This document shows, one piece after another, positions 8,062 through 27,260 of a stretch of DNA of 64,000 nucleotides. The position numbers were made by a program, and so were the translations under genes. The DNA is from an uncultured Pseudomonadales bacterium (GTDB taxonomy: Bacteria > Patescibacteriota > Microgenomatia > UBA1400 > UBA12028), in contig CAZWPK010000002.1 of assembly GCA_964635905.1 (NCBI GenBank), positions 77,621 through 141,620 of the forward strand, written 5' to 3'. The notes below the pieces were generated by a model, which saw only the letters and a list, made by a program, of their open reading frames with translations, had not been told where the DNA came from and ran no database searches. Numbering within the stretch: the stretch's first letter is position 1; the number at the start of each line of letters is the position of its first letter.

Positions 8062-9933
8062 TTGAACATGTGTGGAATCGCCGGTAAGGTAACATTTGAG
8101 GGGTCAGTGAAGGCATCGGATATCAAGAAGATGACCGACAGTCTCTCCCATCGTGGTCCCGATGATGATGGGGTTGAAGCGTTGGAATCGTGTGGACTTG
8201 GCCAACGACGATTGGCTATTATTGATCTTTCTCCAAAAGGTCATCAACCAATGAGTTACGACTCAAAACGGTATTGGATTACCTTTAATGGTGAAATTTA
8301 CAATTATCTTGAACTTCGCAGTCTGCTGCTTAAAAAAGGCTATCCATTCACTTCCCAGTCTGATACAGAAGTCATCTTAGCAATGTACGCCCAGTATCAC
8401 GAGAAATGTGTTAAATACTTTAATGGCATGTTTGCCTTTGCCATCTACGATAAGAAAAAGAAAACGTTGTTCGCTGCGCGTGACAGAATGGGTAAGAAGC
8501 CCTTTAAATATTACTTCTCTTCCAACTCCTTTATTTTTGCCTCTGAGATCAAAGCACTCTTTACCCAACCAGAAGTTCCAAAGGAAGTCGATGAAGAAGC
8601 CATCTCTTCCTATATTTACTGGGGGTTTGTACCCTCTCCTCGGACTGGATTTAAAGCTATTTACAAATTGCCACCGGGTCACTACTTGATCCTTCAAAAC
8701 AAAAAACTAACGATTAAACCGTATTGGTCAGTAACCGTTGATCCCACTTCTTCTCTGTCAGTTGAAGAAGCGAAATCACAACTTCGGACTTTACTTGAAT
8801 CCTCCGTTTCACTTCGAATGATTGCTGATGTCCCGTTAGGCTCTTTCCTATCAGGAGGAATTGATTCCTGTGTCGTAACCGGTTTGATGAGCAAGCTTAG
8901 TGATCATCCAGTTCGTACATTCACGGTTGGAGCAAGTCAGTGGGGCATGGATGAACGAGCAGATGCAAGAATCTCAAGTCAGTTTCATGGGACACGTCAC
9001 CTAGAGCTGGAGATCAAACCAAACGTTAATGAGGCATTGATACACCGATTAGTGACAGCCTATGATGAGCCTTTTGGAGATTCATCCGCAATTCCTTCCT
9101 ATTTTGTCAGTCAACTTGCCCGAAAACATGTTACGGTAGCGTTAAATGGGGATGGTGGTGACGAAAGTTTTTTTGCGTACAGTAACCATACAACATTAGC
9201 GTTTATTAAGCGCATGCACGCCCTTTCGCTACCCGCTAACCTGGTCTATCGACTCCTTCGTCCCTTCACTTCACAAGCAGTGATGCATCCGCTGGTTCAG
9301 CGCGTACTCCGGGTATCGCATCTTCTGTCACAACAATCGCTGGATGGCTACAGTCTCTACGCACGTGGATATACCAACGGGATAGACATGAATGAACTCT
9401 GGAATGATGCCACCAATCAGTTAGAGAAAGAACTTGCCTCAAGGTTACCGCACACAGCAACCGATGATATCAGTAAGGTTCTGTCCCTCGATCTTTCAAC
9501 AATTCTTCCAGATGGGTTGATGACAAAAATGGATATTGCCAGTATGCAGTGGGCGTTGGAGGGCCGTTCACCGCTCCTAGATTACCGAATAGTCGAGTTT
9601 GCCGCATCACTGCCACTAGAGTATAAATATCACAATCACGAGACAAAATGGATCCTTAAGGAGGCCTGTAACGATCTAATTCCACCCTTGATCCGTTCGT
9701 TACCGAAACGAGGTTTTGTCCTTCCTGTAAATGAGTGGATGAAGACTACTCTTCGCAAACAGTTTGATCAGGCTTTTCTTTCTACGAACCATCCAATGTT
9801 TTCAATCCTAAACTTTGACACCACCAAAAAGATGTATGACTATCACCAGCGGGGTGTAGCGGATTATTCTGCGCAACTGTGGAAACTATTTATGCTGTCA
9901 AAATGGTATGACACTTTTTTTAAGTCTACGTAA
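8062..9933 (+). CDS. asnB: Asparagine synthase (glutamine-hydrolysing)-family amidotransferase (AsnB/WbpS-like)
   Basis: N-terminal MCGIAGK nucleophile Cys2 of an Ntn glutamine amidotransferase, then the PP-loop SGGIDSCVV of the synthetase domain. Length is 623 aa, as in the glycan-cluster AsnB paralogs. Confidence 0.85.
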   Translation: MNMCGIAGKVTFEGSVKASDIKKMTDSLSHRGPDDDGVEALESCGLGQRRLAIIDLSPKGHQPMSYDSKRYWITFNGEIYNYLELRSLLLKKGYPFTSQSDTEVILAMYAQYHEKCVKYFNGMFAFAIYDKKKKTLFAARDRMGKKPFKYYFSSNSFIFASEIKALFTQPEVPKEVDEEAISSYIYWGFVPSPRTGFKAIYKLPPGHYLILQNKKLTIKPYWSVTVDPTSSLSVEEAKSQLRTLLESSVSLRMIADVPLGSFLSGGIDSCVVTGLMSKLSDHPVRTFTVGASQWGMDERADARISSQFHGTRHLELEIKPNVNEALIHRLVTAYDEPFGDSSAIPSYFVSQLARKHVTVALNGDGGDESFFAYSNHTTLAFIKRMHALSLPANLVYRLLRPFTSQAVMHPLVQRVLRVSHLLSQQSLDGYSLYARGYTNGIDMNELWNDATNQLEKELASRLPHTATDDISKVLSLDLSTILPDGLMTKMDIASMQWALEGRSPLLDYRIVEFAASLPLEYKYHNHETKWILKEACNDLIPPLIRSLPKRGFVLPVNEWMKTTLRKQFDQAFLSTNHPMFSILNFDTTKKMYDYHQRGVADYSAQLWKLFMLSKWYDTFFKST

Positions 9934-12570: not shown

Positions 12571-14373
12571 CTAGGGATTAAAATACACGCAAATCACTTT
12601 ATTTGCATCGGCAGTTTGAATACAGTGCAATGCTTTATCCACTTGTTGATCCTCTACTATACCGGCTATGACTTTAACAGGGGTACTACGATCATTTCCA
12701 GGCACGACCTTGATAGCATAGCGCTGTGCGGTATAAATGAAGGGATACACATACCCTTCTCTTCCTGTAAAGGCAACTTTTTTAACCCCGTTATCATGGA
12801 GGTAGATGATCATTTCTAGATAGGCAGATCTCCAATATGGTCGTGACAGAAAGTAATTTGCCTCATTTCTTCCAAAAAGCACTGACTGCGGAGGCGTATA
12901 TCCAGAAGGTATTGCGGACTTAATGGTGGAAAGAATGGGTTGATACGAAATCAGTGGCCGAGAAACGTTAGAAATAAGTACGATAAAGCCTACACCAACA
13001 GTTATGACGGCAATTATTATTGATGTTTTCTTTGAAGGTTTGAGTACACCGATACCCGCTGTGAGAAGAACAAATAGAATGCTTAAGTGTTGGCGAATGT
13101 GATATGGCTGCCAACGTAGCAGGATACAAAAAAGGAAAAAAGAGCAGATGCCAAGGAAAAAAAGAACAAACGTCATCCCTGTCCTCTTCGCTTTATTTCT
13201 ACCGACGAGGGCAAGGATCATTGCGATCAACGCCAGATGTAATGGCGCTGGCGCTATATCTTCCTGAGGTATTGGGATACTTAGATGAGAGAATGTTGAA
13301 TGAAACCACGAAGATTCTGACAAACGTACTGATACTCCAAGGGGTTCAACGATTGTTACCCACAAATCCAGTGACTTTGAGAAACTAAAAAATGGAACGT
13401 GCATCAAAAGATTTCGATAAATGTTTTCCACAGCTCCAGCGACGCTGAGGGTGTCCACCATAAAGGGAATGCTTTCACCATCAATGGTGTAACTTGTCCC
13501 TAAGTATGAATTGAACAGTCGCTTATTTTGACTTAAAAGAGGAAGACAAAGTAGGAGCCCAAAGAGGCCCCCGATGGCAGCTGCCTTCAGCATTTTGAGC
13601 CTGTCGGAAGAATAAACAAAAAAATGCGAACCTACAATGCCTATGGGCATTACGGCATAGATGACCATCGTCGCTTTAGTAAGGTAACCAAGTACTACGG
13701 AAACTGTGCACAAGAACAGCAGCACTGGGTTTCTATCAATTACATATCGAAGTGCAAAAATGATCGACACCAAAACCCAAATGGCAACCAACAAATCACT
13801 TTGGACGCTGCTCGCTTGCAGCGTTGCAATCGGTATACTCAGACTTAGAATCTGGGCTAATTGCGTTTGTCTTGAGGTGTATGCAAGGAGCTTGGCAATC
13901 CGTCCAATGAAAAAGAATATGAGCACATACGAAATCCACTGCGGAAGAAATAGCAACAAATCAGAATTCGTTAGACTATAAAAAAATGCAAGGAGGATAC
14001 TCGGCATCGGCCCCATAAAGTCGTGTGACGTGTGAATGTCGGTTTGAAAGAGGGTGTGGTTTTGCAGCCAGTACAGCGCGCGCGGAATATGATAATTATG
14101 AGCATCTGTCGTGGTAGGAACAGAAATAAACCCTTGAATAAAAGCCAATGTAGAAAAAATGACCAGCACACCCACAGTTCGCGATACTGTTACCGTATGT
14201 CTATTCAAAAACAGCAATGACAAAAGGACAGCGACGATTGCTAATCCAACCATGCGCACTATATCCGGCGTAAACATGGAGAATGCCGATAGTACATATG
14301 ATAGACTTAACAACAGAATTCCGGCTAAAGCTACTACTGTCTCTAGTGGAATAGCGCGAAATCTAGATTGCAT
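12571..14373 (-). CDS. Large polytopic membrane protein, putative GT-C-like glycosyltransferase
   Basis: About 600 aa with many TM helices. I chose the start at the internal Met (MQSRFRAI...) to limit overlap with the upstream gene. There is no specific motif beyond the architecture. Confidence 0.4.
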   Translation of the reverse strand: MQSRFRAIPLETVVALAGILLLSLSYVLSAFSMFTPDIVRMVGLAIVAVLLSLLFLNRHTVTVSRTVGVLVIFSTLAFIQGFISVPTTTDAHNYHIPRALYWLQNHTLFQTDIHTSHDFMGPMPSILLAFFYSLTNSDLLLFLPQWISYVLIFFFIGRIAKLLAYTSRQTQLAQILSLSIPIATLQASSVQSDLLVAIWVLVSIIFALRYVIDRNPVLLFLCTVSVVLGYLTKATMVIYAVMPIGIVGSHFFVYSSDRLKMLKAAAIGGLFGLLLCLPLLSQNKRLFNSYLGTSYTIDGESIPFMVDTLSVAGAVENIYRNLLMHVPFFSFSKSLDLWVTIVEPLGVSVRLSESSWFHSTFSHLSIPIPQEDIAPAPLHLALIAMILALVGRNKAKRTGMTFVLFFLGICSFFLFCILLRWQPYHIRQHLSILFVLLTAGIGVLKPSKKTSIIIAVITVGVGFIVLISNVSRPLISYQPILSTIKSAIPSGYTPPQSVLFGRNEANYFLSRPYWRSAYLEMIIYLHDNGVKKVAFTGREGYVYPFIYTAQRYAIKVVPGNDRSTPVKVIAGIVEDQQVDKALHCIQTADANKVICVYFNP

Positions 14374-15556
14374 AAAGTGAAAGGAGTTTTTCAAGAGACT
14401 CCTGACCGGTCCATAACTTCGGTTGTTCGGCTTTTTGTGAACGGTGAAAGTATTCAACGATCATTTCGGAGTCTTTTTGTTTGTCAAAGCTTAACTGTTC
14501 TACGATGTCAGCAATTGCCTTGGGGTATAAAGCTTTATTACCGACTACCGTAGGACATCGATTTAAACTTGCTTCATAAACAGGATAACCAAATCCTTCA
14601 TAAATGCTTGGGTGAACAAAAACCTTCGCTGTATGATACAAAGCCTTGAGCATTAAAAAACGTACCTTTGGAAAATATAGTACAGAGCGTTGGTCTCGTA
14701 GCATTTCTTTGACTTTAAAATGATCGTTACCATGTTGCCCTACGAGTACTAAGTATGCCGACGGTTCCAATTGATGGATTTTATTCCAGATTTCCAGCAG
14801 ATATGGTATTCGTTTGTGCGGATAGTGTGCGCTTACACATAAGGCAAACCTCTTGCCTTTTAACGCTGAAGGTAACGATTCAAATGGCCCGTTATACACG
14901 TCCGGTGCAATTATTGGGGGCACCACCACTATTTTGGCTTTCGCCCATGGCAGATGTTCGCTTAATCGTTTTTTTGAAAACTCGCTATCGGTGACGATTG
15001 TTTTACTCTTGAGACAAGCCAGTGTGACCAATACATGGGTGATGATCCCAGAAAGAAATGAAAAATCTTCAGGATGATCCAGCCAATTCGCGTCATGAAC
15101 AGTCACGATTGATTCGGCTTTCAGAAAAATTGGAGCAGTATAGCCAAATGAATGGAGCAGAATGCAGTTTTCCGTTGCAACCTGAAACGGCAGAATGCAC
15201 TGCTCATAGAGTAGGCGTAGAATTCGGTTGCTCGCTCTCACTTTACACACAACTTTGGTTACCGATGATTGTGAGAATTCAAATGTCGAAGCATTTTCTT
15301 CGTTACAAAAAAGAACATACGTATTGGTCGAATCTCTACTCAATTGATTAATGAAGTTACGGGTGAGGTATTCTGTACCACCAACCTGGTTTGGAACTAA
15401 AAATAAAAGGTTTATACCAATTCTTGCCATATGCGCAAATACTAGATCATTGACAGTGTACCTTGAGCAAAGGAAACTCACAATACTTCTGGTTAGCATG
15501 ATATATTCTAAAGATTCAGCTATGCTTACCTCAAAAATAACGGCATGTTTAGTCAT
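14363..15556 (-). CDS. Glycosyltransferase family 4
   Basis: VHPSIYEGFGYPVYEASLNRCPTVV is a classic GT4 E-x7-E motif. Confidence 0.7.
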   Translation of the reverse strand: MTKHAVIFEVSIAESLEYIMLTRSIVSFLCSRYTVNDLVFAHMARIGINLLFLVPNQVGGTEYLTRNFINQLSRDSTNTYVLFCNEENASTFEFSQSSVTKVVCKVRASNRILRLLYEQCILPFQVATENCILLHSFGYTAPIFLKAESIVTVHDANWLDHPEDFSFLSGIITHVLVTLACLKSKTIVTDSEFSKKRLSEHLPWAKAKIVVVPPIIAPDVYNGPFESLPSALKGKRFALCVSAHYPHKRIPYLLEIWNKIHQLEPSAYLVLVGQHGNDHFKVKEMLRDQRSVLYFPKVRFLMLKALYHTAKVFVHPSIYEGFGYPVYEASLNRCPTVVGNKALYPKAIADIVEQLSFDKQKDSEMIVEYFHRSQKAEQPKLWTGQESLEKLLSLYAI

Positions 15557-16340
15557 TCACAACGAAGAAGAGGTTCTCGAGCGATGTTTACAAAGTGTGG
15601 TGAAGCTTACGAAGAATATCTTAGTTCTTCATGATGGACCATGCTCCGATTCCTCCCTTCTAATCTGTCAAAGATTTGGTTGCACAATATTTAGTAAAGA
15701 GTTTATCGGTGAAGCGGAACCGCACCGAGCCTGGTTGATGCAAAAAGTAGAGACCGATTTTTGTCTGCAGATTGATGCCGATGAGTTTCTTTCAAAAGAA
15801 TTACTGCAATACCTATCAACTCCAAAGAATCTTCATAGCAGTGCGTATACGGCTATCTGGCCGTACTGGAATGGAGAAAGATATACAACCCATGGCTGGC
15901 CAAGAAAGCTATTTCTGTACAACATAAACGACATTTGTTTTTTGGGTGCACCCCATGAAGCGGTTCGTGTATCGGGAACGACGGAAAATCTTCCCTTCAT
16001 CCTAGAGCATCGACCAAATTACGATAATCTTAGTCTCCACACATTCTGGAGAAAATGGCGTAAATGGGCATCTATTCATGCGGGTTATTATTTGAAGAAA
16101 CCGACACAAATCCAACAGTACCCAAAATCAAGTAAACATCTTGCGTTGCACTATCACCAATGGATGTCTTTTTCGCCGTTAAGCTCCATCCCATTGGGGG
16201 TGTACCACACCCTTGCGTGTTTAGCGTCTGGTGGTCTGACTCAAGGATATATCGGGATCAAGAGTTGTGTTTTTATGGGCGTATACTATTCTCTAGTATC
16301 TCTTAACGTAGCCAGAGAGAAGTATGCAAAGAATGATTGA
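15519..16340 (+). CDS. Glycosyltransferase family 2-like
   Basis: I prefer the start at MLTSKITACLVIHNEEEVLERCLQSV (GT2 N-terminal signature), with a downstream DADE (DxD). The track ORF extends upstream to 15351, but that stretch overlaps the antisense GT4. Confidence 0.5.
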   Translation, partial: AMLTSKITACLVIHNEEEVLERCLQSVVKLTKNILVLHDGPCSDSSLLICQRFGCTIFSKEFIGEAEPHRAWLMQKVETDFCLQIDADEFLSKELLQYLSTPKNLHSSAYTAIWPYWNGERYTTHGWPRKLFLYNINDICFLGAPHEAVRVSGTTENLPFILEHRPNYDNLSLHTFWRKWRKWASIHAGYYLKKPTQIQQYPKSSKHLALHYHQWMSFSPLSSIPLGVYHTLACLASGGLTQGYIGIKSCVFMGVYYSLVSLNVAREKYAKND

Positions 16341-16875
16341 ATTATTTCTACACATAATCCGCTTTTGCATTCATCGCTATTGTTATTCGTATGCAAGCTT
16401 TGGAAAGAAGATTGCAATTGATGGAAATGTTGTGGTTCGACATTCCTCAGCTATAGCAATTGGAGATGCTGTGCATTTGCAAAATGGAGTCTGGCTAAAT
16501 GCAATTTCCCCCCAGTCAAAACCTTCAATTGAAATTCAAAACGGCTGTGATATCGGACGCTTCTGTTTTATTTCTGCAGTTTCTAGTGTGATTTTGGAAC
16601 AGGACGTTTTACTTTCACCAAATGTGATTATTTCTGACCATTCCCATGAGATTACTATCCTGGATCGATCCATCCTACGGTCTGGTATTACGTCCAGTAA
16701 ACCTGTTCGCCTTAAAAAAGGCTGCTGGGTAGGAGCGAACTCAGTCATTTTGCCTGGAGTAACAATTGGTGAGCATGCAGTTATCGGAGCAAATAGTGTG
16801 GTACGAAAGTCTGTCCCGGATTTTTGTGTCGCAGTTGGCTCGCCTGCCAAAATCGTTAAGAATCTTTCCGATTAG
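16324..16875 (+). CDS. Hexapeptide-repeat (left-handed beta-helix) sugar O-acetyltransferase
   Basis: Tandem [LIV]-G-x4 hexapeptides (CWVGANSVILPGVTIGEHAVIGANSVVRKSV). 183 aa. Confidence 0.75.
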   Translation: MQRMIELFLHIIRFCIHRYCYSYASFGKKIAIDGNVVVRHSSAIAIGDAVHLQNGVWLNAISPQSKPSIEIQNGCDIGRFCFISAVSSVILEQDVLLSPNVIISDHSHEITILDRSILRSGITSSKPVRLKKGCWVGANSVILPGVTIGEHAVIGANSVVRKSVPDFCVAVGSPAKIVKNLSD

Positions 16876-19036
16876 ACCGTTTAACCGGCTTCCTTGCGAT
16901 GCAGGAAACGGCAGAACCCCGATGCAACACCATTTCTAAACTAGAAAGAGGAAATTCAATTGCGTAAAACACCAGTCTTTTTTGATCGTGCAACAAACAG
17001 CGAATCAACTCATTTTTCAAACTTGAGAAATCATAAAGAGCTGCATATGTCCGACAGGACAACAAATGGAAGCCAGTGTCTTTAAGCAAATACGATAATG
17101 ATTTGGGAGAAAATTGAGAAAAATGTTCCTCTGGATATAAATATCTCCAATTTTTACCAGAAAGTGCCCCTTCAATCGATGTAAAATTTGGGCTTTCGAT
17201 AAAAACAACCCCACCCGGTTTTAAATAGTTAAAAATGTCTTTGCACCCTTTTCTAGGATCTTTAAGATGTTCCATTACATGGTTTAGAATCACAACATCA
17301 TAGTTGCCTGCCGATGGTAACCGATCACCGAGATATCCTTTGTACACTTTCAACCCTCGCTTTTTGCACAACTTGACCGCATCGGCAGACGGTTCTAATC
17401 CTTCTGCAGAAAATCCGTGTGTTTTGAGTGCATTTAAAAAGAATCCGAGTGAACACCCGACATCAAGGGCTCGTCCTGAATTTTGATACTTTCGAATATC
17501 TTGCACTCTTCTCGAAAATACATTCTCCAAGTAGACGCGCCATTTCTCGTATTTTTCTACATGCTGATAATCTTCATACGGCTTTTCAAGAACAGATGTA
17601 GAAAAGACGTGGCCACAGTTTGAACATGAAAAATAGCGAATAGTTTTGGCTACAAATTTTTGGGTTGTTACGGGTTTTAAACAGACAATGCATTTAGTCT
17701 TGGTCATATGTTGTTTTTTATTATCCACCAATGCCAGTACGGAATAGATAAATACTGGAAAGGCGAAAAGAAGTAAACGTTGGAAAGAATCTACAATCTC
17801 TTTCCAATAGGTATTGTTAGCAAACAAATAGGTACCAGCCACAATCGCCCCGACGCACGCGAAAGTGGTAATCGTCGCTACAATTCGATGATACGTACGT
17901 CGTTGCCTGAGGATGAGAAAAATGATGATCACGATCCAACCACCCCAAATAGGAGTTGCATATCGAGCTACGTGCTCAAGCACTTCCAGCCAACGGTGGA
18001 AATCCAGAAACGACTGAATGGAAGAGAGCATGTTTCCTCCCTGCTCATAGGTAGCCAGTTCTATAGAATTTTGAGGAAGGACTTGCTTGAGGATGGAATG
18101 GACATAATTATTCCATCCTCTCCAGACGATAATGATGGGAAGTAGCCACAGGGAAACTTTCCACTGCCGAAGGGTAATGCATCCATAGAGTAAGAGCAGC
18201 CCAGCAATTATCCAAAATGGCTCGCTTTGACGAACCCACAGTGAACCGGCGATAAGTAAGGATCCGAGCTGTGCCATCTCAACTTTTTTCGAAAAAATCC
18301 AGGAAAGCAAACAACATATTCCCAGTCCCCAATAGACCATGTAGGGGAAATTGGAATAGGCAATCATGGTGTGCGCAAACAACATAGGTACTGTCAGCAG
18401 CGCTAGTGAGCCAAAAAATGCAGGTAGTCTGCCTAACGTTGATGAAATAAGACTAAAAAAGGTCAAAACGAGTGACACTGCTAGTAGCGAAAATATTCCC
18501 ATTCCATTCCAAGCTCCCAACAGATATTGCATTGCGAGAAGCACAGAGGTATACCACGGGTAACTTAGTAAATAGATATCTTGAATGGATGAGAAAAGAG
18601 GCCGGATTGAACCCACCATTAAGAGTAATCGAGCCCGAAAGTCATACAACGTTATCGCGTCCCAATCCGTATGTGGCCAGAACGCATTCATTAGTATCAC
18701 ATAGCAAAGAATGGAAGTGATTAGGATAAACAACGATTGTTCAGTTCTATTTCGAGGCAAAAAAGAATGAACCATCGCTGATATCTCTATCCAATACCCT
18801 TTTGAAGTCCACGCATAGAGAGCCGACGGCACCAGCACTGAAAGTATCAATCCCAGTGACCGATAGATATCTAAGCCAAAAACTAGAGCAACAAAAAACA
18901 AAAGTGTAGCGACGAACGATCCAATCAAGTAGGCAGAAGCGCATCGAACAGATGAGGCAGGTATCCGTAGTAACGCAACAAGAACATACCCAAACCCATG
19001 TAACGACAGTAGAAAAAGCATTGAAAGAAATGTCAT
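16856..19036 (-). CDS. Fusion protein: N-terminal polytopic membrane (GT-C-like) domain + zinc-ribbon + class I SAM methyltransferase domain
   Basis: 726-aa continuous ORF. Residues 1 to about 440 form multiple TM helices. Then comes CIVC-x18-CSNC (CxxC...CxxC). Then MTase motif I (ALDVGCSLGFFLNAL), post-I (GLEPS) and motif II (YDVVILNHVMEHLKDP). Confidence 0.6.
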   Translation of the reverse strand: MTFLSMLFLLSLHGFGYVLVALLRIPASSVRCASAYLIGSFVATLLFFVALVFGLDIYRSLGLILSVLVPSALYAWTSKGYWIEISAMVHSFLPRNRTEQSLFILITSILCYVILMNAFWPHTDWDAITLYDFRARLLLMVGSIRPLFSSIQDIYLLSYPWYTSVLLAMQYLLGAWNGMGIFSLLAVSLVLTFFSLISSTLGRLPAFFGSLALLTVPMLFAHTMIAYSNFPYMVYWGLGICCLLSWIFSKKVEMAQLGSLLIAGSLWVRQSEPFWIIAGLLLLYGCITLRQWKVSLWLLPIIIVWRGWNNYVHSILKQVLPQNSIELATYEQGGNMLSSIQSFLDFHRWLEVLEHVARYATPIWGGWIVIIIFLILRQRRTYHRIVATITTFACVGAIVAGTYLFANNTYWKEIVDSFQRLLLFAFPVFIYSVLALVDNKKQHMTKTKCIVCLKPVTTQKFVAKTIRYFSCSNCGHVFSTSVLEKPYEDYQHVEKYEKWRVYLENVFSRRVQDIRKYQNSGRALDVGCSLGFFLNALKTHGFSAEGLEPSADAVKLCKKRGLKVYKGYLGDRLPSAGNYDVVILNHVMEHLKDPRKGCKDIFNYLKPGGVVFIESPNFTSIEGALSGKNWRYLYPEEHFSQFSPKSLSYLLKDTGFHLLSCRTYAALYDFSSLKNELIRCLLHDQKRLVFYAIEFPLSSLEMVLHRGSAVSCIARKPVKRSNRKDS

Positions 19037-19968
19037 TGATACTCTCTTTTTAAATGAATCACACCATAAAAACTGGCATAAGCTTCTGGATTGTAATCAC
19101 TATTCTCTACTCTCCATGATTGTAAAGTAAATGGATTATAGAGATCCATCCAAGCAATTTTCTCTTTAGGAATTACAATTTTTGGCCAGCCGAAATCACC
19201 TTGATCAGTTTCACCCCTTGCAATCACTAGATGCGTAATTGAATTGGGGATACCTTGTAGATCACTTTGAAGCATCTCCACATGTCGTGGGGACAAGAAA
19301 TAGAGAACATAGTAGATATTACCAGATTTAATCCAAGGTTCTCCTTGTGGAGGAATTCCCACCGTTACCTCACTGGAATTCGGGATCACTTTACTCCAAA
19401 ACGCACCGACCCTGTAAAACCATAAAGACTCACCCACTCCATACTTTCGTACTGCATATCTCTGATGAGGTTCAAGACTACGATACTCAAGCGTGTACAA
19501 GCCTTGCGAGAGCATCTGAGACCCCACAATTAGGAGTTGTGAAATCACCAGACCAATGAGGATTAGCATCAGAAATGATCGTTGTTTAAAAAGAAGTTGT
19601 GCCTGCACGGATGACATGAGATTTCTCCAACGATCAACTCCTGGGAACACAACGACTAAGAACAGAAGGACAAAAAACCAGTATGGTAAGGTGAAAAATC
19701 GATACAGCTTAAACTCCAGATAATAGGGACTCATTCGGATCTGTGGGAAAATGGACTGAAGACTAAACGCAAAAAGTAGACCAACGGACAGCAAACTTGA
19801 ATAGAGAAGGAGCCGAGATGAAATTTTCGCGTTGACCACCCCAATGAGTAGCAGCACCACTAAAACCGAAAGCAAAATAGAATCGACACGTGGAATGAAA
19901 AGAGCGCAAAAGCATACTGCAGCCAGCAGTGCTCCAGTTACAAATCTCCATATCCAATGAGAAAGCAT
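19033..19968 (-). CDS. Membrane protein with C-terminal extracytoplasmic domain, unknown function
   Basis: 311 aa. N-terminal half has 4 to 5 TM helices and the C-terminal about 150 aa is hydrophilic. Start ATGA overlaps the stop of the upstream gene. Confidence 0.4.
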   Translation of the reverse strand: MLSHWIWRFVTGALLAAVCFCALFIPRVDSILLSVLVVLLLIGVVNAKISSRLLLYSSLLSVGLLFAFSLQSIFPQIRMSPYYLEFKLYRFFTLPYWFFVLLFLVVVFPGVDRWRNLMSSVQAQLLFKQRSFLMLILIGLVISQLLIVGSQMLSQGLYTLEYRSLEPHQRYAVRKYGVGESLWFYRVGAFWSKVIPNSSEVTVGIPPQGEPWIKSGNIYYVLYFLSPRHVEMLQSDLQGIPNSITHLVIARGETDQGDFGWPKIVIPKEKIAWMDLYNPFTLQSWRVENSDYNPEAYASFYGVIHLKREYQ

Positions 19969-19985
19969 ACGATATACTTAGTCCC

Positions 19986-21644
19986 ATGTTGTTGCTATTG
20001 ATACTATCAGTTCTCTTAGCCTCGTCCGCACTCCAGTTAGGCACATGGGTAGATTCTACACTACCAAAAGCTGAGCGTTTACTAATTGGTATTGGCCTGA
20101 TTTTTTCTTTACTTCTCATTATCAACATCCTCTTCCCAATCACTTGGGGACTAAGTCTAGGCATCTTTTTCATTCCATCAATGTACCTTGTTACGCGCCA
20201 TCATCGATGGTCTCTGTTTCAACAATTCGTAGCAGTTGTTAGACAAAACCTTTTCCAGCTGCTTGTGGGGTTGTCGATTGCACTAGGGATTTCTTATGCT
20301 GGAAGTTTCCCAACTACGTGGTATGACTCATTGCTGTATCACATCCCAACTGTCATCAATCTGATACAGTCACCTGTCGTCTCCGGGATTGCATTAATTC
20401 ACATTCGATTAGCCTCTGTCAGTCTCCCATTTGTATTTTCATCGCTACAAGCTTCGCTGCCAAACCTTGGAAGTTATAATTTCCCTTCAGTGTTTTTCTT
20501 CGTCATCTTGGGTCTACTCTATTTTTTTGAAAAACGATCACTCCACCTAAAGAATTTGAAGGCATCGACAAGTTTGTGGTTTTTTTTCATAAACATCGCC
20601 GTATTCTTTGTCGTGCACGGATTAAGTTTATTCTCAACGTTAGCTCCGGAACTCGTGTTATTTGTTTGCAGTATCTTGCTTGTCTATGGTTATCTACAAA
20701 GACGGCTGACACTGGTAGTTGCAGCATTCATTCTCGGATTTGTCACAAAAATATCGATGCTTCTTTTTTTGCCATTTGTGATCATGATGATCGGAGAAAA
20801 GCTGTATTCTCATAGATCTTTGGGAACCCTCATGCAGTTGATAGCCGATAATAAGCGACGATTGATAGCCCTACTCCTTCCCGTTATCATCGGAAGTCTT
20901 TATTCATTCATTGTATCGGGTTGCTTCGTATTTCCGATTAAACAAACCTGTTTACCATTAAAAAATGCTCTTACAGAATTGCAAGTTACTGACTATACCA
21001 AAATTGTCCATACTTGGGCTCGTTTTAATCCTTATCAGTCGATTATGAAGTCGGAAGTCGAATGGTTTAGTAGCTATTTTATTCAAACGATTCCTCCCAT
21101 CCTCAAGATTGTTTTCGCACTTACAACTCTGTTGATGGTTGTGACGGTGGTTGTAGGTGCATCCAAACAAAAGTCTTTCATAAACTATCGAGAAGTTTTC
21201 GCAATAGTCTTTCTCTTTTTTACTATGATCACTGCTTACAAAACGGCTCCCGATTTTCGGCTACTCTGGCCGATGGTGCTTTCGTTTGTGGCGCTTTTTA
21301 CTGCAACGGTTCTTACGCGCTTTCAACGTGTATTTCAATTACAACTAAATGTACTAGTAATCGGTACGTTTCTATTTGTGCTCATTTCCTTGTCAACAAT
21401 CACAGCCACGCTTGAAAAGCCGTTGCGCGAGAGTCAGCTTCTCTACCCCATTGAAACAATTTATAATCAATCAGCCCAAAGGCAAACGAGTTCATTTTCA
21501 TCATTTACTTTCACTGCACCTGTATCGGGGGATGATCGATGTGGAGTAGCATCCTTTCCGTGTATTCTCGATCCATCCGTTCTCTCCTCGTATACCTACT
21601 CCGTTGATTCGTTAGGAAGGCTAACAGGCGTCTATCATCGATAA
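19986..21644 (+). CDS. Polytopic membrane protein, unknown function (possible GT-C/polymerase-like)
   Basis: About 550 aa with more than 12 TM helices and a C-terminal Cys-containing soluble tail. The track start at 19929 overlaps the divergent gene, so I prefer the internal Met (MLLLLILSV...). Confidence 0.4.
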   Translation: MLLLLILSVLLASSALQLGTWVDSTLPKAERLLIGIGLIFSLLLIINILFPITWGLSLGIFFIPSMYLVTRHHRWSLFQQFVAVVRQNLFQLLVGLSIALGISYAGSFPTTWYDSLLYHIPTVINLIQSPVVSGIALIHIRLASVSLPFVFSSLQASLPNLGSYNFPSVFFFVILGLLYFFEKRSLHLKNLKASTSLWFFFINIAVFFVVHGLSLFSTLAPELVLFVCSILLVYGYLQRRLTLVVAAFILGFVTKISMLLFLPFVIMMIGEKLYSHRSLGTLMQLIADNKRRLIALLLPVIIGSLYSFIVSGCFVFPIKQTCLPLKNALTELQVTDYTKIVHTWARFNPYQSIMKSEVEWFSSYFIQTIPPILKIVFALTTLLMVVTVVVGASKQKSFINYREVFAIVFLFFTMITAYKTAPDFRLLWPMVLSFVALFTATVLTRFQRVFQLQLNVLVIGTFLFVLISLSTITATLEKPLRESQLLYPIETIYNQSAQRQTSSFSSFTFTAPVSGDDRCGVASFPCILDPSVLSSYTYSVDSLGRLTGVYHR

Positions 21645-21648
21645 CACT

Positions 21649-23828
<2,180 letters not shown>

Positions 23829-24605
23829 TTATTTGAGGATAGAGTACGCAGCAAGAATACAACGGTTATGAAGGGCATGCAAGCGAAGCAACACACCGGA
23901 AGAGGTGAATCTAGACGCAACTATCTGTTCCTCTTTGAATTGCTTTGCGTAGCTGCTTCCCCCTTTTGAATTTTGATGAATTCTAAATGCAGATAAGGCT
24001 TGATTAAGAAAGAAGGGTGATCCAAATTTATTTTGCAGTCTCCACCAGTATTCATAGTCCATTGTATAGGACAGTGCTTCATTAAATTCCCCGATTTCTT
24101 CATAGGCACTAGCTCTAAAAAAGACCGAGGGCTGTGGAATCGGATTGAGGATGCTCAGGAGGCTTTTAGAATAGATCCGCCGCAACAATGATTTATACAG
24201 CCGGACGTATGACTGGATTTGAGTTCCATTGGCATCAACGATTAGAGCATCACCTACTACCCACTGAACGGTGGGGTTTTCATCAAATACTTTTGCTACC
24301 GCAGAAAATGCACCTGGCAAATAATAGTCATCGGAATTCAGATAGGCCAGAATCTCTCCGCTGGCACGTTGTAGACCTTTATTAATGGCGTGGGCTTGAC
24401 CGTTGTCGGGTTTGCTTTCAACAACAATTCTCTTCCCGAACTTTTTTAACGCAGTAAGTGTGTTGTCTGTCGATCCACCATCCATGACAATGTGTTCGAC
24501 ATCTAATATATCTTGATTTTGGACACTCTCAATAGTTTTGGAAATGAAAATGCCTTGATTGTAGCTTGGAGTAATAATGCTAAAGTGCGGCTTTTTTGGT
24601 GTCAT
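23829..24605 (-). CDS. Glycosyltransferase family 2 (paralog of 9926..10738)
   Basis: FSIITPSYNQGIFISKTIESVQNQ and LNSDDYY motifs. It shows about 40 to 50% identity by eye to the GT2 at 9926..10738, including a homologous shadow ORF. Confidence 0.75.
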   Translation of the reverse strand: MTPKKPHFSIITPSYNQGIFISKTIESVQNQDILDVEHIVMDGGSTDNTLTALKKFGKRIVVESKPDNGQAHAINKGLQRASGEILAYLNSDDYYLPGAFSAVAKVFDENPTVQWVVGDALIVDANGTQIQSYVRLYKSLLRRIYSKSLLSILNPIPQPSVFFRASAYEEIGEFNEALSYTMDYEYWWRLQNKFGSPFFLNQALSAFRIHQNSKGGSSYAKQFKEEQIVASRFTSSGVLLRLHALHNRCILAAYSILK

Positions 24606-24933
24606 CGATAGCTTTCTTTCGAACCAGCTGCTCTAGCTTCTTATCCATTCGCTTTTGCTCAATTCGATTTAGAAAAGTGAGAAATACTACGATCATTAAG
24701 GCAATAATCACAAGTAAATCAAAAACTCTGGCAATATTTAATGTTTGGACCACTCCATTAACAGTTTGAGGAAAAATCGCCAAGAAAATAAAGACTCCCC
24801 ACAAACCCATCCAGATTCCGTATTCCATGCTATCGATATGTTGTTTTCGATGATGGATACGAACCGTATACATCATGAAGAGTCCAAACAGTACGGAAAT
24901 AATCTGTAGTAATCTCATAAACCTACTTTCCAT
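24580..24933 (-). CDS. Small membrane protein, DUF2304-like (GT2-associated)
   Basis: About 117 aa with two TM helices and a charged C-terminal tail (EQKRMDKKLEQLVRKK). This layout and the position next to a Dpm1-like GT2 are typical of DUF2304. The start could be 24951, 24933 or 24918. Confidence 0.4.
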   Translation of the reverse strand: MESRFMRLLQIISVLFGLFMMYTVRIHHRKQHIDSMEYGIWMGLWGVFIFLAIFPQTVNGVVQTLNIARVFDLLVIIALMIVVFLTFLNRIEQKRMDKKLEQLVRKKAIDDTKKAAL

Positions 24934-25571
24934 TCTAGCAAACACCGGCAAATATGTATTCCGTCGATGAGCGTCATTCCTTTATCGGTATCATGATAAA
25001 TAGCTTCAATTTCAATAACTGCATACTGAACGTGCTCTTTGGTTACTCGCATTGCTATCTCAGTCTCCACTTCATATCCCGACGATTTCCATTTCACTTT
25101 ACCATAACCTTTACGAGTAAGAGCTTTGTACCCGGAGGGAATATCAGGAATATAACCGCCGTAGAGCATGTTGAGCAAAACAGATGCGAATTTGTTACCT
25201 AAGAATCGCGATAATGGCATATTAGCGCCCATTTTGCGCACGCCAAATACAACATCAAACTCTCGTAGTGTAGCGATGAATTTAGGAATTTCTTTGGGAT
25301 CATGTTGATCATCAGCATCCATAAAGATGACTGCATCTGCATTGAGAGTCGAGAATGCATATTCGCATCCAGTTTTTAATGCTGCCCCTTTACCTAGATT
25401 TGTCTCATGAACCAGCACGTGTTTTGTATGATTGCCTGCCAAAGAGGCAGTATTATCAGTCGAGCCATCGTCGACAAAGATTACCTGAGGATGAATTGCT
25501 TTCACCTTTGAGAGTACGGTGGAGACATACTGTTGTTCATTATGGCCGGGGATGATGATAAAGACATTCAT
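24915..25571 (-). CDS. Polyprenyl-phosphate sugar synthase-like GT2 (Dpm1/GtrB family)
   Basis: Start at MNVFIIIPGHNEQQYVSTVLSKV; DxD region FVDDGSTDNT ... FMDADDQHDP. It is short and soluble, as in GtrB/Dpm1-like enzymes. Confidence 0.65.
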   Translation of the reverse strand: MNVFIIIPGHNEQQYVSTVLSKVKAIHPQVIFVDDGSTDNTASLAGNHTKHVLVHETNLGKGAALKTGCEYAFSTLNADAVIFMDADDQHDPKEIPKFIATLREFDVVFGVRKMGANMPLSRFLGNKFASVLLNMLYGGYIPDIPSGYKALTRKGYGKVKWKSSGYEVETEIAMRVTKEHVQYAVIEIEAIYHDTDKGMTLIDGIHICRCLLEWKVGL

Positions 25572-27259
25572 AGAACGCCAGATTTGCTGAATCTTGTTAT
25601 ACCCTGCATTCCCAGTGCACACAAGAGCAAGCCAAAGGTAAAGACAGAAAGCAATACGGATAGACGCTCTATCCTACTCATCGAAATCCTCCAAGTAAGC
25701 ACATTCTCCCCCTCTCGAATCATTGCCTTCGCTACGACGACCCTCCCGTTACCTTCTGTGTAGGAAACTGGAACTCCATTGAGTTGGAAAGTATAGATCT
25801 CGGGGAAATAGGACAGGGCTACTTCAAAGTCCGTGCTGACTGTTTGCGGAGACGAAAATGTGATCGTTCCCGTTCGCTCTGTTGTTTCTCTTTGTATGTT
25901 ACTTACGATTGGTAAACTGATAATTTTCTCATCGGAGACACAGGCATGACGGTCATTTCTACTCAAAATTTCATCAGAAACCCCTGTAGAAGTTAATCGC
26001 AGTGGATGCGTTTCTAATGCCGAAAAGATTGATAGATCTTGAACTGGATTCGGACGCATGTAGTTACGAATCGAATACCAGGAAAGCACGGCTAAAAACA
26101 TTGCCAGAAGAAACTGACCACGATGATTTTTAAGACCTGAAATACCAATGGCCGCTAGCACTGCGGCTAGAAATACCAACGGACCAAGTAATCGAAAGGG
26201 AAATTGGATCACATGAAGGATAGGCACAATAGTCCACACTGGCATTGAATACTGTGTTGCCAAATATAAATAACCCAAAAAGACTAGTAAAATCGAAATC
26301 AGTCGTAGACCTTTCTGTTGATGTTTTTGTATTGTTAGGAATGCTGTAACGGCGAATAATCCTACTCCAATCAGCTGGGCGGCACCGATAGAAAAAGAAA
26401 TGCCCGATGGAAAGCTGCCGTCGGTCACACCCGCTTGATAGGTATACCCCCAAGGGGAATAAATGAGCTGCTGGATAGTCAACAGGTTTCCTTCGATATC
26501 TACCTTTTGATCGACTAATCTGGTTTGCGATTGATCCAATAGTGCCGGAAACCAGAAAAAGCCAGACAATAAGAGTGCGCAGAGACCAAGTTTAGCTGTC
26601 GATATCCAGTTTTTAGATCGCACCGATTGGACAATACAGTACGCTGCGATCAATGGTAGAGCAAGAAACACCACAACATTGTGAGACAGCGAGAATGCCG
26701 TAAACATCAAACTTGCAATGAGTAGTCGGAAATGGGACTGGTGGTTTTTGTAGTACAACGAAAATGTCCATAACACGACAGGCAGAAGTGCATATCCAAA
26801 TGACTCTACACTGCCTCGAACATATACATTTAACATCCGATATGGGGCCAGGAGATACAGCACTGCACCTGCAAAACTAGCCCAAACAGTTAATCGCTCC
26901 GATCGAAGCCACCCATACATTCCTAGTGAGGAAACAAAGAAAGTTAACGCATACATCGTGGTGACAACAGAAACTAGCGGAACATTTAGAAGTACTGATC
27001 CACTGGCCGCAAGCCAGTGCCAAAGAGGATAGAAAAATTTGAATACCGGAACTCCACAATAATGATTCAGGCTTTGTGACCAATGGATTGGGAATTCACG
27101 AAATGACAGTGCTTTTGCCGCTACCAAGGAGCGCATCAGCATATATTCACCGTCATGGGAGGCGAAAAAGAGGACTGTTTTCGTATTGTAGGAGCAAATA
27201 GCTGATAAAAGTCCAAGAACTGCGATGGGTAGTAGGGAATAAATCCGTCTAAACGTCAT
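25568..27259 (-). CDS. Polytopic membrane protein, putative GT-C glycosyltransferase
   Basis: 563 aa with more than 12 TM helices and a C-terminal beta-rich soluble domain. ATGA overlap with the downstream Dpm1-like gene. Confidence 0.45.
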   Translation of the reverse strand: MTFRRIYSLLPIAVLGLLSAICSYNTKTVLFFASHDGEYMLMRSLVAAKALSFREFPIHWSQSLNHYCGVPVFKFFYPLWHWLAASGSVLLNVPLVSVVTTMYALTFFVSSLGMYGWLRSERLTVWASFAGAVLYLLAPYRMLNVYVRGSVESFGYALLPVVLWTFSLYYKNHQSHFRLLIASLMFTAFSLSHNVVVFLALPLIAAYCIVQSVRSKNWISTAKLGLCALLLSGFFWFPALLDQSQTRLVDQKVDIEGNLLTIQQLIYSPWGYTYQAGVTDGSFPSGISFSIGAAQLIGVGLFAVTAFLTIQKHQQKGLRLISILLVFLGYLYLATQYSMPVWTIVPILHVIQFPFRLLGPLVFLAAVLAAIGISGLKNHRGQFLLAMFLAVLSWYSIRNYMRPNPVQDLSIFSALETHPLRLTSTGVSDEILSRNDRHACVSDEKIISLPIVSNIQRETTERTGTITFSSPQTVSTDFEVALSYFPEIYTFQLNGVPVSYTEGNGRVVVAKAMIREGENVLTWRISMSRIERLSVLLSVFTFGLLLCALGMQGITRFSKSGVL

Positions 27260-27260
27260 G

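What the first reader, a model, noticed from the sequence alone, without database searches (positions are those of the whole stretch)
16856..19036. GT-C-like membrane domain fused to a zinc-ribbon SAM methyltransferase
A single 726-aa ORF joins an N-terminal polytopic membrane domain of about 440 aa to a CxxC-x18-CxxC zinc ribbon. A class I SAM methyltransferase follows (ALDVGCSLG motif I; YDVVILNHVMEHLKDP motif II). This organisation recalls zinc-ribbon sugar C/O-methyltransferases of the TcaB9/TylC3 type. I do not know of a characterised glycosyltransferase with this fusion. It may couple transfer of a glycan unit with its methylation. Alternatively, the membrane part may anchor a methyltransferase that acts on lipid-linked sugars. 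A hexapeptide acetyltransferase (16324..16875) lies next door on the opposite strand.
Basis: seen in the sequence. Interest (0 to 1): 0.65.

Follow-up and report, generated by a model that had tools for sequence, protein, structure and literature searches.

The report
Two glycan genes fused by one-base loss
The 726-codon reading frame is real, but it consists of two neighbouring cell-surface-sugar genes (a membrane glycosyltransferase and a methyltransferase) that are separate in every related genome and joined here only because one "A" is missing from a short A-run, so it is a one-strain accident rather than a new bifunctional enzyme family.

Summary
Observation confirmed: window 16856..19036 (minus strand) is one uninterrupted 726-codon ORF. 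It has a 13-helix membrane half (residues 1-443), a CxxC-x18-CxxC zinc ribbon (449-474) and a Methyltransf_23 domain (507-660).

Interpretation partly right.
- The membrane half is a divergent PMT_2/ArnT-like GT-C protein. 32 of 64 family members hit Pfam PMT_2, and all Foldseek hits with probability above 0.3 are GT-C enzymes. D124xD126, R269 and R420x6P427 lie on the predicted outer face.
- The fusion is not a conserved architecture. In six related Woesebacteria lineages the two halves are separate genes of 443-453 and 280 aa that overlap by 4-31 nt.
- No fused homologue appeared among the 150 best hits from 1.84 billion representatives, or in 45 related loci.
- Restoring one A in the A6 run (17714..17719) recreates the relatives' arrangement exactly: a 447-aa protein, the same stop and a 14-nt overlap.
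- The methyltransferase keeps its own ATG (Met444).
- The two catalytic sites lie on opposite membrane faces, and the full-length model does not fix the domains' orientation (pTM 0.66).
- The TcaB9 resemblance is limited to the fold. The defining Pfam domains are absent.

Verdict: a strain-specific in-frame fusion, or less likely an indel error, of an ordinary coupled gene pair. Low interest.

The parts
16856..19036 (-). 726-codon ORF: an in-frame fusion of two ancestral genes
   Evidence: ORF. (identical in an NCBI contig and in a Logan assembly).
17708..19036 (-). Membrane half (residues 1-443): about 13 TM helices, a divergent PMT_2/ArnT-like GT-C protein. It is orthologous to stand-alone proteins of 443-453 aa.
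   Evidence: P0001-P0006, 38-66% identity, membrane half only. (pLDDT 87, pTM 0.90). (ArnT 5f15 probability 0.99, TM 0.49; STT3, ALG9, EmbB, Pmt1/2). (32 of 64 family members hit PMT_2).
18659..18667 (-). D124-W125-D126, a DxD-type motif at the start of the 60-residue outer loop. D126 is invariant in 64 family members; W125 is invariant among the 17 closest and conserved in at least 90% of the 64.
   Evidence: conservation. (a DxD motif in the first luminal loop is the GT-C hallmark).
17714..17719 (-). A6 run, 6 nt upstream of the methyltransferase ATG. This is the inferred site of the one-base loss that put the two genes in the same frame.
   Evidence: adding one A gives a 447-aa product ending DNKKTTYDQD*, the same length, stop position and 14-nt overlap as in relatives; junction alignment and frame offsets.
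17705..17707 (-). ATG of Met444, the ancestral start codon of the methyltransferase gene, retained inside the fused ORF
   Evidence: residue 1 of the 280-aa stand-alone P0019 (81% identity) aligns to query residue 444; the start codon is at the homologous position in all lineages.
17694..17696 (-). Out-of-frame TAA, the ancestral stop of the membrane gene. It is still present but is no longer read.
17615..17692 (-). Zinc ribbon, C449xxC452-x18-C471xxC474
   Evidence: Read from the sequence. All four Cys conserved in 22 of 22 homologues. Beta-hairpins with pLDDT 87-94.
17057..17518 (-). Class I SAM methyltransferase core (Methyltransf_23), residues 507-660
   Evidence: E 7.6e-27. (PDB neighbours 3dli, 2p7h, 1vlm, KijD1, TcaB9).
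19033..19968 (-). Upstream 311-aa membrane protein of unknown family. It overlaps the ORF start by 4 nt and is syntenic in all relatives, so it is probably in the same operon.
16324..16875 (+). Convergent hexapeptide (WbbJ/WcaF-like) sugar O-acetyltransferase. Its 3' end overlaps the ORF's 3' end by 20 nt. It is syntenic in all relatives.

Best explanation
The ORF consists of two adjacent genes of a surface-glycan locus in a Candidatus Woesebacteria (Patescibacteria) genome.

Gene 1 encodes a 13-helix GT-C glycosyltransferase of a divergent PMT_2/ArnT-like family. Its conserved DxD, R and RxnP motifs face the outside of the cell. By analogy with all GT-C enzymes, it transfers a sugar from a polyprenyl-phosphate-linked donor onto a glycan or protein acceptor outside the membrane.

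Gene 2 encodes a soluble, cytoplasmic zinc-ribbon class I SAM methyltransferase. It most likely methylates a sugar of the same glycan while the glycan is still a nucleotide-activated or lipid-linked intermediate on the cytoplasmic face.

In relatives, gene 2 starts 4-31 nt before gene 1 ends, in another frame. This layout is typical of translationally coupled pairs. In this strain one A is missing from an A7 run 6 nt upstream of the methyltransferase ATG. The membrane frame therefore runs straight into the methyltransferase frame and yields a single 726-aa polypeptide.

The C-terminus of the membrane half is predicted to be cytoplasmic, so the tethered methyltransferase ends up in the correct compartment and both halves can plausibly still work.

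Shown: ORF continuity, the two-gene state in relatives, the one-base explanation, and the family and fold assignments. Inferred: topology, substrates, translational coupling of the relatives' gene pair, and that the fused protein is made and active.
For: Two-gene ancestry:
- the best hits are a 447-aa membrane-only protein (66%, query 1-442) and a 280-aa methyltransferase-only protein (81%, query 444-723 aligned to 1-280).
- the same syntenic block, with two genes, in six lineages.
- methyltransferase frame offsets of +1 or +2 in relatives and 0 only in the window.
- A6 to A7 restores a 447-aa product with the relatives' stop and 14-nt overlap.

No other fusion: 45 loci, open frames of 433-502 codons wherever the contig holds the whole gene; best 150 hits; 45 methyltransferase homologues of 213-340 aa.

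Real rather than an assembly artefact:
- identical ORF in an NCBI contig and in a Logan assembly.
- The other syntenic genes on the 100%-identical Logan contig have the same or nearly the same lengths as in L001.

GT-C assignment.

Topology: (K+R 18 inside against 8 outside).

Glycan context: (GT2, GT4, three further GT-C-like proteins, epimerases, an acetyltransferase and a second methyltransferase).

This methyltransferase type also occurs fused to a MOP flippase, GT2, GT4 or a polysaccharide deacetylase elsewhere.
Against: - No reads were available, so a consensus error in the A-run cannot be excluded.
- The NCBI and Logan assemblies may derive from the same reads.
- The window protein itself has no Pfam hit in its membrane half, and the Foldseek E-values are weak (0.3 and above).
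- The DxD loop follows the fourth helix, not the first.
- Nothing identifies the methyl acceptor.
- The full-length model gives no confident domain-domain arrangement (pTM 0.66, linker pLDDT below 50). It is therefore unknown whether the tethered methyltransferase can still reach its substrate.
- Shine-Dalgarno motifs are weak throughout this genome. Whether free methyltransferase is also made from Met444 is open.
Confidence: 0.62

Rival explanations
1. Sequencing or assembly indel error. The organism really has A7 at 17714..17719 and therefore two separate overlapping genes, like its relatives. On this view the fused ORF does not exist in nature.
For: The difference from the ancestral layout is a single base in a homopolymer. 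The fusion is unique among all relatives. Contigs from three other samples with 99.3-99.8% identical sequence all stop about 60 nt short of the junction, so there is no independent confirmation. Two metagenome scans with junction patterns found nothing.
Against: The identical sequence occurs in two assemblies made with different pipelines, with 0 mismatches in 8181 nt. A k-mer-based Logan contig of 49 kb implies accurate reads, in which a consensus error at A6 is rare. No other syntenic gene on that 100%-identical contig shows a frame disruption.
Confidence: 0.15
2. One reading: an evolved bifunctional enzyme in which the GT-C and methyltransferase domains form one unit that couples transfer of a glycan unit with its methylation.
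For: The ORF is continuous and both domains are intact. The gene pair is adjacent and overlapping in the whole clade, which suggests a functional link. The same methyltransferase type is naturally fused to a MOP flippase and to GT2/GT4 enzymes.
Against: The fusion is found in one strain only and is explained by a one-base loss with the ancestral start and stop still in place. The predicted active sites are on opposite membrane faces. pTM falls from 0.90 to 0.66 when the methyltransferase is added, and the linker is disordered.
Confidence: 0.1
3. The fusion is real but damaging or neutral. Tethering by a linker of about 10 residues, or loss of termination-reinitiation coupling, impairs one or both activities, as an early step of gene decay in a variable surface-glycan locus.
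For: The linker between the last TM helix (ends about residue 437) and the first zinc-ribbon cysteine (449) is very short. The membrane proteins of this locus evolve fast (53-70% identity, against 80-90% for the soluble enzymes). The fusion has not spread.
Against: Both halves are full length with all invariant residues intact. The cytoplasmic C-terminus makes the fusion topologically permissible. Met444 remains available as an internal start.
Confidence: 0.1
4. Slippage switch. The A-run lets the population, or the transcripts, toggle between split (A7, A5 or A8) and fused (A6) forms, as in phase-variable surface-glycan genes.
For: All three frames at this junction give intact products: A7 a 14-nt overlap, A5 or A8 an ATGA overlap, A6 a fusion. 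Lineages use all three frame relations. L001 has an in-register A_AAA_AAA heptamer whose -1 slip would also yield a fusion.
Against: A6 or A7 is short for efficient slippage. Other lineages lack the run at this position. No read-level heterogeneity data are available. A-rich lysine codons are expected by chance in a cytoplasmic tail of a genome with about 42% G+C.
Confidence: 0.03

Closest known systems
ArnT / PMT_2-type GT-C glycosyltransferases (Pfam PF13231; CAZy GT83/GT39-like), e.g. ArnT of Cupriavidus metallidurans (PDB 5f15)
   Same: Polytopic all-helical membrane fold. Best structural match: probability 0.99, TM 0.49 over 368 columns. Half of the family members hit PMT_2. A DxD motif opens a long outer loop that carries two short helices, with a conserved R in a later outer loop and a late RxnP motif.
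   Different: The window protein itself falls below every Pfam threshold. By the offset of the PMT_2 matches, three extra N-terminal helices precede the helix equivalent to canonical TM1. Only nine helices follow the DxD loop. There is no C-terminal extracytoplasmic domain, and the C-terminus is predicted to be cytoplasmic. Donor and acceptor are unknown.
TcaB9 / KijD1 / TylC3 nucleotide-sugar C-3-methyltransferases (PDB 3ndi, 5t64)
   Same: An N-terminal four-cysteine zinc module followed by a class I SAM fold. Foldseek E 1e-9 to 5e-8 over about 305 columns. Weak sequence similarity: E 1e-6 for KijD1 and 3e-4 for TcaB9.
   Different: No match to Methyltransf_13 or Methyltransf_14. The C-terminal domain of about 130 residues in these enzymes is absent (TM normalised to the target is only 0.46). 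Generic small methyltransferases (3dli, 2p7h, 1vlm) match equally well or better.
Three-component extracytoplasmic glycosylation systems (GtrA/GtrB/Gtr*; Kelly et al. 2024, PMC11127046)
   Same: The locus combines small GT2 enzymes (candidate polyprenyl-phosphate sugar synthases) next to a DUF2304-type small membrane protein. It also has several GT-C-type membrane proteins.
   Different: No component has been tested. No methyltransferase is part of the described systems. Here there are at least four GT-C-like genes in 10 kb.
Natural fusions of the same zinc-ribbon methyltransferase type with other glycan enzymes (P0069 MOP flippase + MTase; P0149 GT2 + MTase; P0126 MTase + GT2 + GT4; P0144 polysaccharide deacetylase + MTase)
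   Same: The same methyltransferase module, 31-35% identical, including the zinc ribbon where the sequences were read. It is joined to polysaccharide-assembly proteins, in P0069 to the C-terminus of a polytopic membrane protein.
   Different: The partner domains are not GT-C. How widespread those fusions are was not examined.

Membership tests
GT-C glycosyltransferase superfamily (PMT_2/ArnT-like branch) | 7-13 transmembrane helices | tested here: met
   Hydropathy and the AlphaFold model give about 13 membrane helices. Criterion taken from PMC6801728 and PMC11127046.
GT-C glycosyltransferase superfamily (PMT_2/ArnT-like branch) | DxD/DD/ExD motif shortly after a TM helix, at the start of the first large extracytoplasmic loop | tested here: met
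   D124-W-D126, with D126 invariant in 64 sequences, opens a 60-residue loop predicted to face outside. Caveat: it follows the fourth helix, not the first.
GT-C glycosyltransferase superfamily (PMT_2/ArnT-like branch) | Further conserved outer-loop patterns: R/K in loop 3 and a late R-x4-14-P | tested here: met
   R269 is invariant. R420 is invariant and P427 is conserved in at least 90% of sequences (R-x6-P). Criterion.
GT-C glycosyltransferase superfamily (PMT_2/ArnT-like branch) | Significant match to a GT-C family profile (PF13231 PMT_2) | tested here: inconclusive
   The window protein has no hit at E<=10. However, 32 of 64 family members hit PMT_2, with a best E of 3.2e-7, and no other family recurs.
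GT-C glycosyltransferase superfamily (PMT_2/ArnT-like branch) | GT-C fold | tested here: met
GT-C glycosyltransferase superfamily (PMT_2/ArnT-like branch) | Uses a polyprenyl-phosphate-linked sugar donor with inversion | not testable with these tools
   Biochemical property.
TcaB9/TylC3-type sugar C-methyltransferases | N-terminal zinc-binding domain matching Pfam Methyltransf_13 (PF08421) | tested here: not met
   No hit at E<=10, although a four-cysteine ribbon is present.
TcaB9/TylC3-type sugar C-methyltransferases | C-terminal domain matching Pfam Methyltransf_14 (PF08484) | tested here: not met
   No hit. Only about 65 residues follow the methyltransferase core. TM normalised to TcaB9 is 0.46.
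TcaB9/TylC3-type sugar C-methyltransferases | Class I SAM-binding core | tested here: met
Class I SAM methyltransferase, Methyltransf_23 (PF13489) | Profile match above the gathering score | tested here: met
   94.5 bits against a cut-off of 27.
Conserved multidomain (fusion) protein family | The same domain order recurs in diverged genomes | tested here: not met
   0 of 45 related loci. 0 of the best 150 among 1.84 billion representatives. 0 of 45 methyltransferase homologues. Six lineages have two genes.

The most novel reading that the evidence does not exclude
The fusion is genuine, expressed and active. It is then a natural 'Rosetta stone' showing that this Woesebacteria GT-C enzyme and its cytoplasmic zinc-ribbon methyltransferase normally work as a physical trans-membrane complex. 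In that complex a polyprenyl-linked sugar would be methylated on the inner face and handed on for transfer on the outer face. The A-run at the junction may let lineages drift between split and fused forms.
Probability: 0.15. Interest if true: 0.55.

Novelty: new member of a known kind. Interest (0 to 1): 0.25.

Why it matters
The result guards against over-interpreting a long composite ORF. A single base in a homopolymer turns a translationally coupled gene pair into an apparent new bifunctional enzyme.

The finding that may last is smaller. A Microgenomates-restricted, Pfam-invisible branch of GT-C glycosyltransferases exists, with an N-terminal extension of three helices, no outer C-terminal domain and a cytoplasmic C-terminus. 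In one clade it is tightly coupled to a zinc-ribbon methyltransferase.

If the pair does act together, the fused strain offers a ready-made construct for studying glycan methylation at the membrane in uncultivated CPR bacteria.

Tried and rejected
- Profiles of the membrane family against PDB sequences found nothing.
- hhalign of the family profile against the two neighbouring PMT_2 proteins as single sequences was uninformative.
- I looked for independent coverage of the junction.
  - Contigs from three other samples, 99.3-99.8% identical, all end at window position 17644.
  - A 96%-identical JGI contig starts 36 codons after Met444.
  - Two metagenome scans with junction patterns that tolerate any spacer length returned nothing.
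- A recombination breakpoint at the junction was considered and rejected. Per-gene identities to relatives vary smoothly with protein class across the locus.
- A Shine-Dalgarno comparison to judge internal initiation at Met444 was not discriminating, because most genes here lack such motifs.
- The promoter and terminator scan gave nothing above shuffles.
- There are no tRNA genes in the window.
- Two literature searches found no precedent for a GT-C + methyltransferase fusion. Absence from this library is not proof.
- WaaL/Wzy-like and transporter folds were rejected for the membrane half (Foldseek probability 0.08 or less).
Full report
OBSERVATION

The window holds one uninterrupted ORF at 16856..19036 on the minus strand, 726 aa with an ATG start.

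Pfam places Methyltransf_23 at residues 507-660 (E 7.6e-27, 94.5 bits against a cut-off of 27). Related class I methyltransferase models cover the same stretch. Residues 1-443 match no Pfam model, even at E<=10.

- C449-IV-C452, 18 residues, then C471-SN-C474
- ALDVGCSLG (520-528)
- YDVVILNHVMEHLKDP (578-593)

The four cysteines are conserved in 22 of 22 homologous methyltransferases. Hydropathy and an AlphaFold model (pLDDT 87.2, pTM 0.90) give about 13 membrane helices in residues 1-437.

The hexapeptide acetyltransferase at 16324..16875 (plus strand) is confirmed (Hexapep E 1e-14). Its best NCBIfam hit is WbbJ, below that model's cut-off. It is convergent with the ORF, with a 20-nt 3' overlap.

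IS THE FUSION A FEATURE OF THE FAMILY? NO

A word-indexed search of 5.8 billion proteins returned, as closest relatives, proteins of 443-453 aa. They are 38-66% identical and cover only the first 60% of the query.

An exhaustive phmmer scan of 1.84 billion cluster representatives gave two kinds of top hit:
- a 447-aa protein matching query 1-442 (66%)
- a 280-aa protein matching query 444-723 (81%), whose residue 1 aligns to Met444

None of the best 150 hits matches both halves.

I fetched the genomic context of six relatives at decreasing identity: P0001, P0002, P0003, P0004, P0005 and P0006. All show the same syntenic block:
- DUF8201/LIC_10190-type membrane protein
- unknown protein of about 311 aa
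- membrane protein
- 280-aa Methyltransf_23 protein
- convergent hexapeptide acetyltransferase
- GT2

GT4 and a large PMT_2-like membrane protein follow in all lineages except P0006. In every case the membrane protein and the methyltransferase are separate genes.

A tblastn survey of 45 related loci found open frames of 433-502 codons for the membrane gene wherever the contig holds the whole gene, and no fusion. These loci come almost entirely from Candidatus Woesebacteria, Microgenomates and Patescibacteria genomes. The methyltransferase lies directly downstream only in the closest clade (L001-L008, membrane identity at least 39%).

All 45 methyltransferase homologues at E<=1e-10 are stand-alone proteins of 213-340 aa.

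HOW THE FUSION AROSE

One search gives a codon-level view of the junction. In relatives the methyltransferase ATG lies inside the 3' end of the membrane gene:
- a 14-nt overlap in four lineages (frame offset +1)
- 31 nt in L001 (offset +2)
- an ATGA overlap in L005 (offset +2)

Such overlaps are typical of translationally coupled pairs. In the window the offset is 0, so the membrane frame reads ...LALVDNKKQH-MTKTKCIVC... without meeting a stop.

The window has an A6 run at 17714..17719, 6 nt upstream of the ATG (17705..17707). Adding a single A in silico gives a 447-aa product ending ...DNKKTTYDQD*. This is exactly the length of P0002, P0003 and P0004. The conserved tail tyrosine is restored (compare NTYVKK*, SNYVQD*, KHYGKK*, TTYEKH*). 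The product terminates at the out-of-frame TAA (17694..17696), which gives the same 14-nt overlap.

A5 or A8 would give products of 443 or 444 aa with an ATGA overlap, as in L005. The junction therefore tolerates all three frames, and the window happens to sit in the one that fuses the genes. The ancestral start and the ancestral stop are both still present.

REAL OR ERROR?

The exact 726-aa protein is recorded from NCBI (206-kb contig) and from a Logan assembly of SRR8893623. The Logan contig is identical to the window over 8181 nt.

The other syntenic genes called on that 100%-identical contig have the same or nearly the same lengths as in L001 (311, 183, 272, 355 and 600 aa identical; 416 against 405 and 552 against 553), so the assembly is not prone to indels.

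I could not obtain independent coverage of the junction:
- Three further samples with 99.3-99.8% identical sequence all have contigs ending at 17644.
- A 96%-identical JGI contig starts too late.
- Two metagenome scans with junction patterns found nothing.

I judge a real one-base deletion more likely than a sequencing error (roughly 0.8 against 0.15). Only the reads can settle this.

WHAT THE MEMBRANE HALF IS

The family has sharply conserved residues. D126, Y131, D132, R134, P160, Y227, N229, R269, W308, W411 and R420 are invariant in 64 diverse members. W125, Y159, S265, W267, P273, S417 and P427 are conserved in at least 90%.

Thirty-two of these 64 members individually hit Pfam PMT_2, a GT-C family (best E 3.2e-7). 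No other family recurs.

Foldseek of the model against the PDB gives weak E-values, but every hit with probability above 0.3 is a GT-C enzyme:
- ArnT 5f15 (probability 0.99, TM 0.49, 368 columns)
- STT3 (0.90-0.92)
- ALG9 (0.72)
- EmbB (0.51)
- Pmt1/2 (0.47)
- AglB and GPI-MT-I

WaaL and transporters score 0.08 or less.

Published GT-C criteria are 7-13 TM helices, a DxD motif at the start of the first luminal loop, a conserved R/K in loop 3 and a late R-x4-14-P (PMC6801728; PMC11127046). D124-W-D126, R269 and R420-x6-P427 satisfy them.

With helices taken from the model, loop charges follow the positive-inside rule: K+R 18 in 87 residues inside against 8 in 144 outside. This places all conserved motifs outside and the C-terminus in the cytoplasm.

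The family differs from textbook GT-C enzymes in three ways:
- By the offset of the PMT_2 matches, three helices precede the helix equivalent to canonical TM1.
- Only nine helices follow the DxD loop.
- There is no extracytoplasmic C-terminal domain.

The window protein is a divergent member that current Pfam models do not detect.

WHAT THE METHYLTRANSFERASE HALF IS

The best sequence matches in the PDB are small structural-genomics methyltransferases (3dli 3e-11, 3cc8, 1vlm) and UbiG. The sugar C-3-methyltransferases KijD1 (1e-6) and TcaB9 (3e-4) follow.

Foldseek with the full-length model ranks 2p7h, KijD1, 3dli, MtmC, 1vlm and TcaB9 at E 1e-9 to 5e-8. The KijD1 and TcaB9 alignments are longer (about 305 columns against about 240), presumably because they include the zinc module. 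TM normalised to those targets is only 0.46, because their C-terminal domain has no counterpart here. Methyltransf_13 and Methyltransf_14 do not match.

The protein therefore resembles TcaB9 in zinc ribbon plus core, but it fails the features that define that family.

More telling, the same methyltransferase type occurs elsewhere fused to glycan-assembly proteins:
- a MOP/Wzx-type flippase (P0069)
- GT2 (P0149)
- GT2 + GT4 (P0126)
- a polysaccharide deacetylase (P0144)

This points to a role in glycan assembly at or near the cytoplasmic face of the membrane. The methyl acceptor is unknown.

DO THE HALVES FORM ONE UNIT?

The full-length model keeps high local confidence (pLDDT 89.2). However, pTM drops to 0.66, from 0.90 for the membrane half alone, and the linker at 441-444 has pLDDT below 50. 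The alignment was unpaired, so this is weak evidence, but it gives no support for a fixed bidomain unit.

Together with the opposite-face topology, this argues against direct coupling of transfer and methylation on one substrate. A sequential pathway remains plausible: cytoplasmic methylation, then flipping, then outer-face transfer. The conserved adjacency and overlap of the two genes fit such a pathway.

CONTEXT

The surrounding 20 kb is a surface-glycan locus:
- an AsnB-like amidotransferase
- several GT2 genes
- a second methyltransferase
- three further GT-C-like membrane proteins (PMT_2 at 12571-14457 and 21649-22899; LIC_10190/DUF8201 at 19929-21644)
- GT4
- the acetyltransferase
- two epimerase/dehydratases

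A small ORF on the minus strand between the two GT2 genes (about 24600-24950) lies where relatives have a DUF2304 gene. This layout resembles GtrB-type supply of lipid-linked donors to GT-C enzymes.

VERDICT

The ORF is real in the sequence and both domain assignments are broadly right. The 'fusion' is a one-strain consequence of a missing base at the overlap of two ordinarily separate genes. It is not a new enzyme architecture. Interest is low (0.25).

The most novel reading not excluded is that the fusion is functional and reveals a physical GT-C/methyltransferase complex. I put that at about 0.15.

Noticed in passing
window 19033..19968 (-): The 311-aa protein upstream of the ORF (4-nt ATGA overlap) has no Pfam or NCBIfam match. 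It looks like an N-terminal membrane part plus a soluble C-terminal domain of about 145 aa. Homologues (25-62% identity) lie directly upstream of the GT-C-like gene in many of the 45 related loci, so it is more widely conserved as a partner than the methyltransferase. It might supply in trans the extracytoplasmic domain that this GT-C family lacks.
   Followed up: partly
L001 about 9300..9335 (junction region): In the relative L001 the membrane frame contains CCA AAA AAA CAA, an in-register A_AAA_AAA heptamer. A -1 slip there would put ribosomes into the methyltransferase frame and give a fusion like the window's. It may be chance in an A-rich lysine tail.
   Followed up: no
window 17644 (ends of L049, L050, L051): Contigs from three independent runs (SRR31757421, SRR31757420, SRR31051132), 99.3-99.8% identical to the window, all terminate at exactly window position 17644. 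In two of them (L050, L051) mismatches cluster just before it (17597, 17606, 17612). This suggests a graph branch, meaning strain divergence begins inside the zinc-ribbon region about 60 nt from the junction.
   Followed up: partly
window 17694..17719: The gene junction tolerates every frame. A7 gives a 14-nt overlap, A5 or A8 gives an ATGA overlap and A6 gives a fusion. Related lineages use all three frame relations.
   Followed up: yes
window 12571..14457, 19929..21644, 21649..22899, 25568..29048: There is an unusually dense set of large polytopic membrane proteins. Two hit PMT_2 just above the cut-off and one belongs to the LIC_10190/DUF8201 family. Two further ORFs of 563 and 595 aa have no family match and were not examined.
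   Followed up: partly
P0069 (707 aa): This protein is a MOP/Wzx-type flippase (Polysacc_synt) fused at its C-terminus to the same zinc-ribbon Methyltransf_23 module. It is a membrane-tethered version of this methyltransferase type that arose independently.
   Followed up: partly
L006/L008 (GCA_964492495.1) and other TPA MAG loci: Several genome records titled 'uncultured Pseudomonadales' or 'uncultured Gammaproteobacteria' carry this Woesebacteria-type syntenic locus. The taxonomic labels of these MAGs look wrong.
   Followed up: no
window 15351..16340 (+) and 14363..15556 (-): The longest-ORF starts overextend. Orthologues are 272 aa (start probably 15522) and 355 aa. The apparent 200-nt overlap of these two divergent genes is therefore an artefact of ORF listing.
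   Followed up: partly
window, gene starts listed: Most genes in this locus lack a recognisable Shine-Dalgarno motif, and many starts overlap the preceding stop. This suggests reliance on coupling or on leader-independent initiation.
   Followed up: partly
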